From Promethearchaeota archaeon (GTDB taxonomy: Archaea; Asgardarchaeota; Lokiarchaeia; Sigyniarchaeales; SOKP01), in assembly GCA_019894975.1 (NCBI GenBank), contig JAGXNO010000033.1, positions 1 through 43,480 on the forward strand: 43,480 nt of DNA, written 5' to 3'. The number at the start of each line of letters is the position of its first letter. Positions within the stretch are counted from its first letter, which is position 1. Positions 34,266 through 43,480 of this stretch are shown here, piece after piece. The notes beneath the pieces are model-generated. The model did not search any database, was not told where the DNA came from, and saw nothing but the letters and a program-made list of their open reading frames with translations. The position numbers were made by a program, and so were the translations under genes.

Positions 34266-36032
34266 CTAATTATCCAATGCCTCAGTTTCCGATCGTTCCA
34301 TTGAAAGTTTGTTTTGCATTGAAACGGGGGGATTCACGCACCAAATATAATGACCCTCTTCGATTTTAATTGGGTGGGGCGCTTCACTCATACACTCTTT
34401 CGTCCTAGCATCCGAAATACACCGGGGATTAAAAGTACATCCTGGAGGAGGTGCGATTGGACTTGGAACTTCGCCTTTGATAACATATTTGATTTCCTTA
34501 TCGCTGGGATCAAGCTCAGTTCTTGATGCTAATAATGCGATAGTATAAGGGTGACTAGGATTTGAAAAGATTTGATCAGTCTCCCCAACTTCAACAAATT
34601 TACCGAGATACATGACCGCTACTCTATCAGCAATGTGATTAACTACAGCTAAGTTGTGTGTTATAAATAAAAATCCGTATCCATAGTTTTTCTGCAAATT
34701 TTTTAATAAATTAAGAATTTGAGCTTGGACTGAAACATCTAGAGCAGATGTAGGCTCATCTAGTATTACTAATTCTGGATTACTTGCAAGGGCTCTCGCA
34801 ATAATAATTCTTTGTTTTTGACCTCCCGAAAACTCATGTGGAAAGCGATCCATATGCTCTCGTTCTAATGAGACTTCATGTAACAGCTTCAAGACCCGTG
34901 TTCTAATCTCATCTTTTTTTGTTATTCCCAATAAATTCCTCAGCGGTTCTGCTATGATATCTACAATTTTCATTCGAGGATTTAAAGATGAATCAGGATC
35001 CTGAAATACTATTTGAATTTTTCTCCTTAGAAATTTTGCATATTCACGGGGAATCGGTTCACCATTAAAAATAATCTCACCTGCTTCAACTGGAACTAAT
35101 CCTAAAATAGCTTTAGCGACGGTCGTTTTTCCACAACCACTTTCTCCTACTAAACCTACAGTTTCCCCGGTGTGTATATCGAAAGTGACGCCATTGACAG
35201 CTTTAACAGAGCCAAACTGTCTTTTTAACATACCTCCAATTAAAGGATAATAGACTTTTAAATCTCTTAGTTCTAATAGCTTTTTATCCTTCTCAAGAAC
35301 AACGAGACCTCTGTATTGCTCGAACTGTAAGGTTGATTGCGTTAATACCTTTGTGACACTACTAACTATTAGCGTAATTATAAGAGCCCAGATTAGACTA
35401 GCAAAGAATCCTCTAACGAACATTTCCTTTTCTAATTGAAATTCATTACTCAAGAAAAAAATTCCGGGTATTAGTGTAAGGATGATCATAGTATTTTTAT
35501 TAATTAAAAACTGAGCCTTAGTTCCCCAATTAATGAAAAAACCATTTATACCGATTATAACTATTAATATCAAAAATAGACCTAATCCTGATGCATATAC
35601 CTCATCATTTTCATCGGTAACCATGAGTCTTACTATATCCATAACGTTATCCAGTAAAAATCCCACAGCATATAGTATAAGCATAAAACTTATAACAAAC
35701 ACAATAGCTTCATTAAATATCTTATTATTTGATTTCGATACTACCTTTGTAGCTACCCCTATCCCAATTATAATAATTAATAGATCAGACATTAGAGACC
35801 ATAAGAATCCTGATCCAATAAAGAAGAGAACTGCAAATTTAAAAATGATATTCAATAAAAACCAAATAAAATTTACAGTAAATGCAAAGGAATCATTCCA
35901 ATCTTTCCTTTTAGCAAAATTTTTTAAAAGCGACATCCCATAGAGAAATACTAAAACTGAAATGAGATATTCAATAGCTAAATCAGATATAAAAAATCCC
36001 GGGGTTATATTTGATGGTATTTGCATTTGCAT
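34266..36032 (-). CDS. oppF: Oligopeptide ABC transporter ATPase (OppF/DppF-like) fused to an N-terminal ~7-TM domain
   Basis: GESGCGKT, FQDP, FSGGQKQR, ILDEPTSALD, THN, HPYT, GCTFNPRC; the first ~250 aa are hydrophobic. Confidence 0.9.
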   Translation of the reverse strand: MQMQIPSNITPGFFISDLAIEYLISVLVFLYGMSLLKNFAKRKDWNDSFAFTVNFIWFLLNIIFKFAVLFFIGSGFLWSLMSDLLIIIIGIGVATKVVSKSNNKIFNEAIVFVISFMLILYAVGFLLDNVMDIVRLMVTDENDEVYASGLGLFLILIVIIGINGFFINWGTKAQFLINKNTMIILTLIPGIFFLSNEFQLEKEMFVRGFFASLIWALIITLIVSSVTKVLTQSTLQFEQYRGLVVLEKDKKLLELRDLKVYYPLIGGMLKRQFGSVKAVNGVTFDIHTGETVGLVGESGCGKTTVAKAILGLVPVEAGEIIFNGEPIPREYAKFLRRKIQIVFQDPDSSLNPRMKIVDIIAEPLRNLLGITKKDEIRTRVLKLLHEVSLEREHMDRFPHEFSGGQKQRIIIARALASNPELVILDEPTSALDVSVQAQILNLLKNLQKNYGYGFLFITHNLAVVNHIADRVAVMYLGKFVEVGETDQIFSNPSHPYTIALLASRTELDPSDKEIKYVIKGEVPSPIAPPPGCTFNPRCISDARTKECMSEAPHPIKIEEGHYIWCVNPPVSMQNKLSMERSETEALDN

Positions 36033-36077
36033 AATAAATCCTTTCTTTCTATTTTTTTTAATTTTATTCTTTTTTAG

Positions 36078-41640: not shown

Positions 41641-41723
41641 TTATATTATCTTTACAAAGTAAAGTAAATTGAGAAAAAACATCTAAAAAAAAAAATAGGT
41701 AATACGATAAGGAGAAACAAAAT

Positions 41724-43480
41724 ATGAATAAAACTAAGAAAAGTCTAGCTTTTTTCTTATTATTATCGTCAATAATTCTACCACTTCTTCCAGCGATTAC
41801 CGTAGCTCAAGAAGATACCCATGTTTTTAAACATGCTGCTTCGGCTCTACCGGATGAATGGGATCCCGCAGTTACTGATTGGTATAACATAATTTGGGGT
41901 TCCTACGGTGTATATGCTACAGAGGAACTTATTGGATTAAATGCGGCTTATACATCAGGAACAACTGGTCCGATTGAGGATGAGTGGATCGGAGTTCTTG
42001 CTACCGATTGGAATCTCACCCGTAGAGTAGAAGAACCAAATGATTCAGATTTCAATAATACGGGTGGTATAGAATCAGCTGTCTTTAAACTCAGAGAAGG
42101 TGTTACATTTCATGATGGTTCCGATTGGAACGCAACAGTTGCCAAATGGAACATCGATAGAATCAATCTTGTGGCAGGAAATTATACTGGATTGTGTGAA
42201 GTCACAGCGGATAATGAAGCTGAAGGCAATTTGATGCATACCATTGTATTAGAAGATTACAAACCTTATTGGTCCGATAATTGGAATATGACTGCTGAGG
42301 GGTATGACTCCCCAAATCTTGGGACTTCACCTCCTGCAACCCTTCCATCAGTAACAGACTATGCCTGGTATAATCTTGGGGATAATGCTTCACTAGTAGA
42401 TTACGGTGATGCTGTTAATGCCCTCATCTTACCAAATAACACTATACGCAATCCTGCCCCTTATGGAGGTTGGGATTATGTTTCCGGAGCAGCCATTCAC
42501 TACGCACCATACGACAGATATCCTATCATAAACCGCGTTGAGATCATGGATAACAAACAATCTGGAGGAACCATTAGAGTTTTCTATAACCAGTGGACTG
42601 TCTCTGGACTAACTGGGGGAGTAAATCATCCAATGATTTCATACCATTCATATCGAAAGAATTATACTACGAGAGGTATTTATGGCTATGAAAATGGTGT
42701 GGACGATCCTCGGAATGCTGGTCCAGTCACTCATATGATTGGAACCGGAGCCTACACTTATGTAGAACACGATGAAACAGGCACACCCGCTGGAGGATAT
42801 ATGCTAAAATTTGAAGACTACTGGAATAAAACTGCTCTTGAAGCTGAAGGTTGGTTTGATGTTGATAGATTTGAGATTATTAATTTCCCTACCGGTTCAT
42901 TAGGAGAAGATGCTAAGAACACAGCAATGCTTACACATGCTATCGATTTTGCGTACGATTCAATGTATATGCCCCTAGATTATGATGCGGTTCAAGCCGA
43001 ATCACGAATTAGGTATGAGAGTACAGGACCTACTACGTATAAAACTAACATCGTTTTGAATAGTATCAATGAAACATGGTGGGCGTGGCCTTGGGCTGAC
43101 GGTTGGAGACAAGGATTTTATCCATTGGCGGGTAGTGAACCTGCCGGTGGTGTTCCACGAGCGCTGCGAAAATCTATGGGTTATGCTTTCAATTATGATC
43201 TTATGATACACACAGTTTTAAACGATCGTGCAGTACGTGGCGGGGGTGTCATAGGTGCGCAAAATATCTATTTCAATGAAACCTTGGACGACCCAGAATA
43301 TTTGGCCTACTATAATGTAACGAAAGCTCGAGAAATATTACTTACCACTGAAACTGATCCTCTTCTGTTTAACATTTCAACACCTACACCTCATGCTCCA
43401 AATCCTCTTTATAATGCAGGCTATCCATACGGTGATCACAATGCGGTGTCTTTAAACCCTGATAACTACAACTTCAGTAA
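41724..43480 (+). CDS. oppA: ABC transporter substrate-binding protein family 5 (OppA/DppA-like), runs off window end
   Basis: Not in the ORF track (no stop in window). Own translation: signal peptide MNKTKKSLAFFLLLSSIILPLLPAITVA-QE, WDPA, LATDW, FKLREGVTFHDGSDWNATVAKWNIDR, MIGTGAY; AGGAG SD. Confidence 0.9.
   Translation, partial: MNKTKKSLAFFLLLSSIILPLLPAITVAQEDTHVFKHAASALPDEWDPAVTDWYNIIWGSYGVYATEELIGLNAAYTSGTTGPIEDEWIGVLATDWNLTRRVEEPNDSDFNNTGGIESAVFKLREGVTFHDGSDWNATVAKWNIDRINLVAGNYTGLCEVTADNEAEGNLMHTIVLEDYKPYWSDNWNMTAEGYDSPNLGTSPPATLPSVTDYAWYNLGDNASLVDYGDAVNALILPNNTIRNPAPYGGWDYVSGAAIHYAPYDRYPIINRVEIMDNKQSGGTIRVFYNQWTVSGLTGGVNHPMISYHSYRKNYTTRGIYGYENGVDDPRNAGPVTHMIGTGAYTYVEHDETGTPAGGYMLKFEDYWNKTALEAEGWFDVDRFEIINFPTGSLGEDAKNTAMLTHAIDFAYDSMYMPLDYDAVQAESRIRYESTGPTTYKTNIVLNSINETWWAWPWADGWRQGFYPLAGSEPAGGVPRALRKSMGYAFNYDLMIHTVLNDRAVRGGGVIGAQNIYFNETLDDPEYLAYYNVTKAREILLTTETDPLLFNISTPTPHAPNPLYNAGYPYGDHNAVSLNPDNYNFS

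What the first reader, a model, noticed from the sequence alone, without database searches (positions are those of the whole stretch)
34266..43480. Peptide-type ABC importer whose two ATPases are each fused to large additional membrane domains
Established: in Opp/Dpp importers OppD and OppF are soluble ATPases docking on the OppB/OppC permeases. Seen: OppB, OppC and a divergent OppA are all present and intact, yet OppF carries ~250 aa (~7 TM) and OppD ~720-740 aa (~17 TM, split by a soluble linker) N-terminal to complete NBDs with Cys-rich C-terminal domains. The extra domains show no EAA loop and do not resemble OppB/C, so the complex would have ~24 surplus TM helices. Inference: an undescribed transporter architecture, e.g. 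a coupled sensor, second transport path or membrane scaffold. This is my best candidate for a novel system in the window.
Basis: partly seen in the sequence, partly recalled or inferred. Interest (0 to 1): 0.85.

Follow-up and report, generated by a model that had tools for sequence, protein, structure and literature searches.

The report
Membrane-anchored ATPases in Asgard peptide importer
An otherwise ordinary peptide-uptake ABC transporter of a Lokiarchaeial (Asgard) archaeon has both of its normally soluble ATPase subunits fused to large membrane domains of no recognisable family; the fusion is real and conserved, seems confined to Asgard archaea, and I found no description of it.

Summary
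OppB, OppC, a divergent SBP_bac_5 binding protein and two complete Opp/Dpp ATPases are present. OppF carries about 250 aa (7 TM) and OppD about 735 aa (17 TM) ahead of intact ATPase domains.

The fusions are not sequencing errors:
- The same SBP|B-C-D-F operon with both ATPases extended occurs in all 38 related Asgard loci examined.
- More than 240 protein clusters (90% identity) carry these extensions.
- dN/dS is 0.32-0.35 in the membrane parts and 0.07-0.09 in the ATPase parts.

The extensions match no Pfam, NCBIfam or PDB sequence family and no fold I could recognise, and they are unrelated to OppB/OppC. They are built from reusable cassettes:
- OppF: a 3-TM core, with one or two 4-TM cassettes added in larger forms.
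- OppD: a 7-TM module, with a second module (containing the same 4-TM cassette) in larger forms.
- This window alone adds a 2-TM tandem duplication, giving the largest form seen (24 surplus TM).

Predicted TM counts are odd in the window's proteins and modal in each OppF size class, so the N-terminus lies outside.

My best reading is an accessory, TMD0-like anchor or scaffold beside OppB/OppC, not a second transport path. The Cys-rich tails are the known [4Fe-4S] domain. First readers noted the same fusion in another genome.

The parts
41724..43480 (+). Substrate-binding protein (cluster C, SBP_bac_5), divergently transcribed and cut by the window end. Homologues are 700-850 aa.
   Evidence: Pfam SBP_bac_5 E 3.6e-18 and an N-terminal signal peptide. 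Full-length homologues end in IPG[AYF]x + TM + basic tail.
41426..41723 (.). Divergent intergenic region between the SBP gene and oppBCDF.
   Evidence: ORF map. The same divergent arrangement occurs in loci L001-L003 and L019-L056.
40358..41425 (-). OppB permease, 355 aa, 6 TM, EAA loop intact.
   Evidence: BPD_transp_1 E 1.3e-30; sequence.
39350..40345 (-). OppC permease. The first ATG is at 40132, but the frame is open to 40345 and encodes the usual basic N-terminus and TM1. It probably starts at a non-canonical codon.
   Evidence: BPD_transp_1 E 1.2e-29. Upstream translation. Homologous OppC genes are 329-343 aa. The same arrangement occurs in L057.
36078..39332 (-). OppD-like ATPase fused to about 735 aa of membrane domain. 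The minimal ORF starts at GTG 39266; the probable start is ATT 39332 or ATA 39329.
38547..39332 (-). OppD module 1: 7 TM, N-terminus outside. This is the widespread part of the family. Motifs: IN[RK]..P.EKRI, W..QL.IFE.YL, QDIRVL.
   Evidence: Alignments A2, A5 and A7. 38 Asgard loci. More than 210 clusters.
38301..38546 (-). Cytoplasmic linker (P0002 residues 241-322), with a low-confidence stretch and the conserved FPQGISLK..Y motif.
37197..38300 (-). OppD module 2: 10 TM here, 8 TM in other homologues. It is a mosaic of a module-1-like hairpin, a 4-TM cassette and a module-1-like last helix.
   Evidence: hhalign E 1.8e-7, 3.8e-7 and 2.9e-7; BLASTP.
38028..38231 (-). Tandem duplication of a 2-TM hairpin (P0002 residues 346-413). 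It is present only here and in a 97% identical relative.
   Evidence: Gap in 21 of 23 homologues. BLASTP of residues 340-415 against 416-500, E 1e-8.
37299..37787 (-). 4-TM cassette inside OppD module 2, homologous to TM1-4 of the OppF extension.
   Evidence: hhalign probability 93%, E 2.9e-7. With the long OppF class, E 5.9e-9.
36078..37124 (-). OppD ATPase domain plus oligo_HPY/[4Fe-4S] tail. Walker A, Q-loop, signature, Walker B and H-loop are all intact.
   Evidence: Pfam. PDB hits: Mtb OppD E 3.5e-111, E. coli OppD/DppD. Cys 1011/1017/1024/1042 have the spacing of E. coli DppD.
34266..36032 (-). OppF-like ATPase fused to a 7-TM domain, 588 aa.
35613..36002 (-). OppF TM1-4: the 4-TM cassette. 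It is preceded by the invariant PSN[IL][TS] sequon at the extracellular N-terminus.
35277..35600 (-). OppF TM5-7 plus the juxtamembrane linker. This is the 3-TM core, which is the whole extension in the short-class relatives. Motif FFINW[DG]..SQ.
   Evidence: hhalign short class against this region, probability 98%, E 3.4e-13.
34266..35276 (-). OppF ATPase domain plus oligo_HPY/[4Fe-4S] tail. All catalytic motifs are intact.
   Evidence: Pfam. NCBIfam DppF/OppF models. Cys 532/538/547/565.
31175..34027 (-). 950-aa protein of unknown family, same strand, 238 nt downstream of oppF. It is a conserved neighbour in the long-OppD clade; whether it belongs to the system is unknown.
   Evidence: No Pfam match. 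Follows oppF in L002, L003, L057, L058, L019, L020 and L021, but not in L001 or L022.

Best explanation
This is an Opp/Dpp-family (type I) peptide ABC importer of a Lokiarchaeial archaeon.

Shown:
- The transport machinery is complete and conventional: a membrane-anchored binding protein, OppB and OppC with EAA coupling loops, and two catalytically intact ATPases with [4Fe-4S]-type tails.
- Each ATPase is made as one polypeptide with an N-terminal polytopic membrane extension that I found only in Asgard records.
- The extensions are built from reusable cassettes. OppF has a 3-TM core next to the ATPase plus a 4-TM cassette. OppD has a 7-TM module 1, a cytoplasmic linker, and a module 2 that contains the same 4-TM cassette plus, here only, a duplicated hairpin.

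Inferred:
- The N-terminus lies outside and every extension ends inside at the ATPase. Helix numbers are odd, and cassettes are added in even numbers.
- The extensions sit beside OppB (OppD) and OppC (OppF) as accessory domains. They are comparable in role to the TMD0 domains of eukaryotic ABCB/ABCC transporters.
- They tether the ATPases permanently to the membrane and offer a lateral surface for assembly or for partners, such as the anchored oversized binding protein or other membrane or cytoplasmic proteins.
- Peptide translocation itself runs through OppB/OppC as in E. coli DppBCDF.
For: Conventional core:
- Pfam, NCBIfam and PDB matches, with intact motifs.
- The 4-Cys spacing matches or closely follows that of E. 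coli DppD/DppF.

The fusion is real and under selection:
- 28 OppD and 13 OppF clusters carry the same architecture.
- All 38 loci have SBP|B-C-D-F with both ATPases extended wherever both genes are on the contig.
- At least 210 further clusters belong to the module-1 class.
- dN/dS is 0.32-0.35 for the membrane parts and 0.07-0.09 for the ATPase parts.

Accessory rather than catalytic:
- Extension size varies stepwise among relatives. OppF extensions are about 125, 250 or 390 aa (modal peak counts 3, 6-7 and 10-11 TM). OppD extensions are about 290-340, 425 or 640-700 aa. Total surplus runs from about 10 to 24 TM.
- A defined translocation pore would not be expected to tolerate such variation, and the membrane parts are under looser constraint than the ATPases.
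- OppB and OppC are present and intact in every locus.
- The extensions have no EAA loop and no similarity to OppB/OppC.
- The part conserved across all size classes is the one next to the ATPase, as expected for the piece that packs on the core.

Topology:
- The positive-inside pattern of the loops can be read.
- A conserved N-x-S/T sequon sits at the OppF N-terminus.
Against: - No structure or complex model supports the proposed packing. The AF2 models of the extensions alone are of low to moderate confidence (pLDDT 52 and 67), and I could not model the complex.
- No partner has been identified.
- Several polar residues inside or at the ends of helices are strongly conserved: W191 and Q194 in OppD module 1; N54, N61, D83, N163 and N168 in OppF. 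That could equally mean ligand or ion binding.
- A plain tether would need one helix, not 7-17.
- Presence is patchy even within the genus: 10 of 22 genomes among those searched. So the role is dispensable or niche-specific.
Confidence: 0.5

Rival explanations
1. The extensions are transmembrane sensor or regulatory domains. A 7-TM-type module senses an extracellular or membrane signal (a ligand, the lipid state, or the docked binding protein) and modulates ATP hydrolysis through the juxtamembrane linker. This would be an N-terminal counterpart of the C-terminal regulatory domains of MetN or MalK.
For: - 7-TM, N-out modules sit directly ahead of an enzymatic domain.
- Conserved motifs lie in cytoplasmic loops next to the ATPase: IN[RK]..P.EKRI in OppD and FFINW[DG]..SQ in OppF.
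- Polar residues in the helices are conserved.
- The nearest named cluster by language-model features was a HisKA_7TM cluster, but at chance level (score 0.75).
Against: - No detectable similarity to any known sensor family.
- The number of helices changes by whole cassettes between close relatives, which is unusual for a receptor fold.
- Both ATPases carry extensions of different make-up.
Confidence: 0.2
2. The extensions form a second translocation pathway. OppD and OppF would act like a heterodimeric half-transporter (TMD-NBD order as in ABC exporters), so that one ATPase pair drives both OppB/OppC-mediated import and a second flux through the fused domains.
For: - The domain order, membrane domain then ATPase, is that of exporter half-transporters.
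- One automatic JGI name for a fragment reads 'fused ATPase/permease subunit'.
- Conserved polar residues lie in the helices.
Against: - No ABC_membrane or other permease family match and no fold match.
- The two extensions are very unequal (7 against 17 TM), and among relatives the numbers range from 3+7 to 7+17.
- The coupling grooves of the ATPases are expected to be occupied by the intact EAA loops of OppB/OppC, which are present in every locus.
- No coupling-helix-like conserved element was recognised.
Confidence: 0.1
3. The fusions are artefacts (lost stop codons, frameshifts or misassembly), or the N-terminal parts are just divergent ordinary BPD_transp_1 permease domains.
For: This genome is a fragmented MAG (175 contigs, 8.6% contamination). 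Gene callers in other records often cut the N-termini.
Against: - The same continuous frames occur in dozens of independent assemblies from several sources.
- The junctions align without gaps.
- The membrane parts are under purifying selection.
- There is no Pfam hit, and profile-profile probability against OppB/OppC is below 3% while the control gives 96.6%.
Confidence: 0.02

Closest known systems
Opp/Dpp peptide ABC importers (TC 3.A.1.5), e.g. E. coli DppBCDF/OppBCDF and M. tuberculosis OppABCD
   Same: Same parts list and operon logic: a cluster C binding protein, two BPD_transp_1 permeases with EAA loops, and two ATPases with an oligo_HPY tail and four Cys spaced like the [4Fe-4S] ligands.
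   Different: In the solved systems the ATPases are soluble, or fused to each other as in Mtb OppD. Here each carries 7-17 N-terminal TM helices of an unrecognised family. The binding protein of homologous loci is 700-850 aa, with a C-terminal PGF-CTERM-like anchor.
TMD0 domains of eukaryotic ABC transporters (ABCC1/SUR, TAP1/TAP2, ABCB9); comparison from my own knowledge, not tested
   Same: These are extra N-terminal TM bundles outside the transport core. They vary in helix number and have the N-terminus outside in ABCC proteins. They serve as interaction or targeting platforms rather than as part of the pathway. This is the role I infer here.
   Different: No sequence or fold similarity was detected. 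TMD0 is fused to the core membrane domain of exporters, whereas here the bundle is fused to the ATPase of a binding-protein-dependent importer. The resemblance is functional analogy only.
ABC exporter half-transporters (TMD-NBD, e.g. Sav1866/MsbA type)
   Same: The order is membrane domain then ATPase in one chain.
   Different: There is no ABC_membrane match and the helix numbers are odd and variable. The ATPase belongs to the importer OppD/OppF clade, and separate permeases are present.
Importers with domain fusions or extra helices (OpuA/GlnPQ binding-domain fusions, MalF with 8 TM); from my own knowledge
   Same: They show that type I importers tolerate accessory parts around a conserved core.
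   Different: Those additions are on the permease subunit, not on the ATPase, and they are small.

Membership tests
Opp/Dpp (PepT, TC 3.A.1.5) type I ABC importer | Two BPD_transp_1 permease subunits with EAA coupling loops | tested here: met
   Pfam E 1e-29 to 1e-30. EAA-type loops can be read.
Opp/Dpp (PepT, TC 3.A.1.5) type I ABC importer | Two ATPases with ABC_tran plus the oligo_HPY C-terminal region and intact catalytic motifs | tested here: met
Opp/Dpp (PepT, TC 3.A.1.5) type I ABC importer | Cluster C (SBP_bac_5) binding protein encoded with the system | tested here: met
   (the gene is cut by the window end). Full-length copies occur in related loci.
Opp/Dpp (PepT, TC 3.A.1.5) type I ABC importer | Four-Cys [4Fe-4S] site in the ATPase tail | tested here: met
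   OppD: C-x5-C-x6-C-x17-C, identical to E. coli DppD. OppF: C-x5-C-x8-C-x17-C. Cluster binding itself was not tested.
Opp/Dpp (PepT, TC 3.A.1.5) type I ABC importer | ATPase subunits are soluble peripheral proteins (usual, not strictly defining) | tested here: not met
   7 and 17 predicted TM helices lie ahead of the ATPase domains.
BPD_transp_1 permease domain (for the N-terminal extensions) | Pfam PF00528 match, EAA loop, profile similarity to OppB/OppC | tested here: not met
   No Pfam hit. hhalign probability below 3%, against 96.6% for the control.
ABC exporter membrane domain (ABC_membrane, type IV fold) | PF00664 match or a 6-TM exporter fold ahead of the ATPase | tested here: inconclusive
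   No Pfam or NCBIfam hit and no fold hit. The models are only of moderate confidence, so the fold is not excluded by structure.
TMD0-type accessory domain | N-terminal TM bundle dispensable for transport that mediates interactions | not testable with these tools
   Only the position, topology and variability fit. Dispensability and partners need experiments.

The most novel reading that the evidence does not exclude
The extensions are a new membrane-protein fold, specific to Asgard archaea, that gives a nutrient importer a second activity. They would couple peptide uptake to signalling, to another substrate path, or to a membrane or cytoskeletal partner such as the conserved 950-aa neighbour. 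That would make this an archaeal counterpart of the TMD0 interaction hubs of eukaryotic ABC transporters.
Probability: 0.2. Interest if true: 0.8.

Novelty: new variant of a known kind. Interest (0 to 1): 0.6.

Why it matters
Textbook type I ABC importers have soluble ATPases. Here a family of more than 240 protein clusters (90% identity), nearly all from records titled as Asgard archaea, has both ATPases embedded in the membrane through domains of no recognisable fold that grow by adding cassettes.

If the domains are interaction platforms, they would be a prokaryotic parallel to TMD0 domains. If they sense or transport something, that would be a new way of controlling or extending an ABC importer. 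In either case public records annotate these proteins only as 'ABC transporter ATP-binding protein', and gene calls often cut off the N-termini.

Tried and rejected
- Pfam and NCBIfam scans of the extensions found nothing.
- PDB sequence profiles of both extensions found nothing at E up to 1.
- The AF2 model of the OppF extension was too poor to search (pLDDT 52).
- The AF2 model of the OppD extension (pLDDT 67, pTM 0.42) gave no Foldseek PDB match below E 1. VIA-align gave only generic helical-hairpin matches: best Z 10.6 over 132 residues of the WbaP membrane part, below the stated background for helical models. The ESM Atlas gave TM-scores of 0.22 or less. These results do not show that the fold is new, only that I could not place it.
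- Atlas feature searches gave chance-level hits or none.
- Literature searches found no description of the fusion.
- The first genome-collection scan, with a broad alignment, failed for lack of a conserved stretch. A narrower alignment worked.
- Stand-alone modules: the short hits of the exhaustive search that I checked were at contig ends, or on a 1.2-kb contig of 2.9x coverage. I found no convincing unfused module.
- I found no relation between the OppF 3-TM core and OppD module 1.
- One translation was in the wrong frame and is to be ignored.
- I could not tell whether cultured Asgard strains carry the system, because no source name pointed to one.
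Full report
**What is there**

The minus strand from 41425 down to 34266 carries a tight oppB-oppC-oppD-oppF operon. A binding-protein gene is transcribed divergently from 41724.

- Pfam finds BPD_transp_1 in OppB and OppC.
- Both ATPases have ABC_tran plus oligo_HPY.
- The binding protein matches SBP_bac_5.
- Nothing is found for residues 1-250 of OppF or 1-714 of OppD.
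- Hydropathy and AF2 secondary structure give 7 helices for the OppF extension.
- For OppD they give 7 helices, a soluble linker of about 80 residues, then 10 helices.
- All catalytic motifs of both ATPases are intact, as are the EAA loops of both permeases.
- The ATPase parts match solved M. tuberculosis OppD/DppD and E. coli OppD/DppD/OppF/DppF at E 1e-62 to 1e-111. They also match the NCBIfam OppD and DppF/OppF models.
- The Cys-rich tails follow the four-Cys pattern that binds a [4Fe-4S] cluster in E. coli DppD and DppF. OppD has the DppD spacing exactly; OppF differs by two residues in one interval (PMC12136057). That part is ordinary.

**Gene starts**

- The OppD frame is open for 28 codons above its GTG. 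That stretch encodes the ANYGYAIVE motif found at the N-terminus of homologues.
- No ATG, GTG or TTG is available, so ATT 39332 or ATA 39329, downstream of GAGGG, is the likely start.
- A relative shows the same situation (L058).
- OppC likewise has 71 open codons (from ATC 40345) above its first ATG. They encode the usual basic N-terminus and the first helix.
- Homologous OppC genes are 329-343 aa.

**Is the fusion real?**

- A word-indexed search restricted to the OppD extension found 28 clusters of 734-1020 aa. All but two truncated records also carry ABC_tran and oligo_HPY.
- The OppF extension found 13 clusters of about 586 aa.
- The junctions align without gaps.
- Related contigs show the same order: SBP (809-830 aa) | OppB | OppC | OppD-TM | OppF-TM.
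- Against a relative with about 70% identical extensions, dN/dS is 0.32 (OppD) and 0.35 (OppF) in the membrane parts. It is 0.07 and 0.09 in the ATPase parts.
- So the extensions are translated and under purifying selection, though constrained less tightly than the ATPases. Sequence error is excluded.

**How the extensions are built**

- Profile comparison shows that OppF helices 1-4 are homologous to four helices inside OppD module 2 (probability 93%, E 2.9e-7).
- OppD module 1 helices 5-6 and 7 are homologous to other parts of module 2 (E 1.8e-7 and 3.8e-7).
- In this window, and in a 97% identical relative only, a 2-TM hairpin of module 2 is tandemly duplicated.
- Across 38 related loci the OppF extension falls into three size classes:
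  - About 125 aa: 3 TM, equal to helices 5-7 of the window's OppF (probability 98%, E 3.4e-13).
  - About 250 aa: 7 TM.
  - About 390 aa: a second copy of the 4-TM cassette (E 1.3e-24).
- The OppD extension is about 290-340 aa (module 1 only), about 425 aa, or 640-700 aa.
- Both ATPases are extended in every locus where both genes are on the contig. Total surplus helices therefore run from about 10 to 24, and this window is the maximum.
- Helix numbers are odd where I could count them and additions are even. Basic residues cluster in the loops predicted inside. The OppF N-terminus carries an invariant N-x-S/T sequon. I infer N-terminus outside and ATPase inside.

**Distribution**

- An exhaustive profile search of 1.84 billion representatives found only 64 proteins.
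- Among them are 640-770-aa OppD proteins with module 1 only.
- A word search with the paralogue's module 1 found 210 clusters at 90% identity.
- All 38 genome loci lie in MAGs titled Promethearchaeota or Promethearchaeia, in Thor-, Hod-, Hermod- or Odinarchaeota MAGs, or in MAGs titled 'uncultured archaeon'.
- One 4-kb contig titled as a Neomarinimicrobiota bacterium is probably a binning error.
- In a GTDB-based sample of 301 genomes of the phylum, hits were almost confined to the window's own family (19 of 68) plus one other family (1 of 21). Only 10 of 22 genomes of the same genus had a hit (OppF module).
- I therefore treat the non-Loki titles with caution. The trait is Asgard-restricted among what was searched, concentrated in one Lokiarchaeial family, and patchy.
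- The window's own genome has three Opp-type ATPase pairs:
  - This one.
  - A paralogous operon on contig C100, with module-1-only OppD plus 7-TM OppF.
  - A conventional pair without membrane domains on C98.

**What the extensions are not**

- They are not BPD_transp_1 domains. hhalign probability against OppB/OppC profiles is below 3%, against 96.6% for the OppB-OppC control.
- They match no Pfam, NCBIfam or PDB sequence.
- The OppD model gave no meaningful fold match. The models are moderate at best, so I cannot claim a new fold.
- I found no paper describing the architecture. A transporter census of Asgard genomes lists PepT-family systems without mentioning it.

**Most likely mechanism**

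- Peptide import runs through OppB/OppC, driven by the two ATPases as in DppBCDF. This follows from the intact conventional parts.
- I read the extensions as accessory membrane domains flanking the core. DppD pairs with DppB and DppF with DppC in the E. coli structure, so the OppD modules would lie beside OppB and the OppF module beside OppC.
- Reasons for this reading:
  - Helix number varies by whole cassettes between relatives.
  - Constraint on the membrane parts is looser than on the ATPases.
  - The segment adjacent to the ATPase is the universally conserved one.
  - OppB/OppC never go missing.
- The closest functional analogy, from my own knowledge and not tested, is the TMD0 domain of ABCC and TAP transporters.
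- What the platform binds is unknown. Candidates are the C-terminally anchored, oversized binding protein and the conserved 950-aa neighbour.
- Conserved polar residues in the helices keep a sensor role (about 0.2) and a second pathway (about 0.1) alive.

**Verdict**

The interpretation 'undescribed architecture' holds as far as I could search. The function is unresolved. First-stage readers noted the same fusion independently in another genome.

Noticed in passing
window 40132-40357: oppC has 71 in-frame open codons (from ATC 40345) above its first ATG, with no ATG, GTG or TTG among them. An ATG immediately followed by TGA lies just upstream (AGGATGTGA). The identical arrangement is kept in a 97% related contig (L057). 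This suggests initiation at ATC/ATT or an unusual restart.
   Followed up: partly
window 39267-39350: oppD likewise lacks a canonical start for its conserved N-terminus (IIGITFIVANYGY...). The same is true in L058. Public gene calls for this family therefore often begin inside the first helices.
   Followed up: partly
L019:1008-3497, L021:1043-3487, L024:1403-3610, L044:825-3095, L040:1460-3559 (homologues of window 41724-43480): The binding proteins of these operons are 700-850 aa. They end in [LI]IPG[AYF]x + hydrophobic helix + RKKK, which resembles a PGF-CTERM/archaeosortase sorting signal. The window's copy is cut before this point.
   Followed up: no
window 31175-34027: A 950-aa protein with no Pfam match follows oppF on the same strand here and in L002, L003, L057, L058, L019, L020 and L021, but not in L001 or L022. 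It has no paralogue in this genome. It could be a partner or mere synteny.
   Followed up: partly
G000 contig C100 (L006:337-10069): The paralogous operon (OppC, module-1-only OppD, 7-TM OppF) is followed by two tandem pyruvate-formate-lyase-like glycyl radical enzymes of 809 and 816 aa.
   Followed up: no
G000 contig C98:175851-178417: This is a conventional Opp ATPase pair without membrane domains. Each has an insertion of about 40-70 residues inside the ATPase domain. Some module-1-class OppD proteins (P0079, P0086, P0087) have a similar charged, coiled-coil-like insertion.
   Followed up: no
alignment A2, columns about 770-785 (P0002 residues about 700-712): About a third of OppD homologues keep a Met 10-12 residues before the first ATPase strand, where unfused OppD proteins start. 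This could be a relic of the ancestral start codon or an internal start. The window's copy has none.
   Followed up: no
Record titles assign carriers to Thor-, Hod-, Hermod-, Odin- and Heimdallarchaeota, yet in the GTDB-based genome sample hits fall almost entirely in one family. Either the submitters' labels or the sampling explains the mismatch.
   Followed up: no
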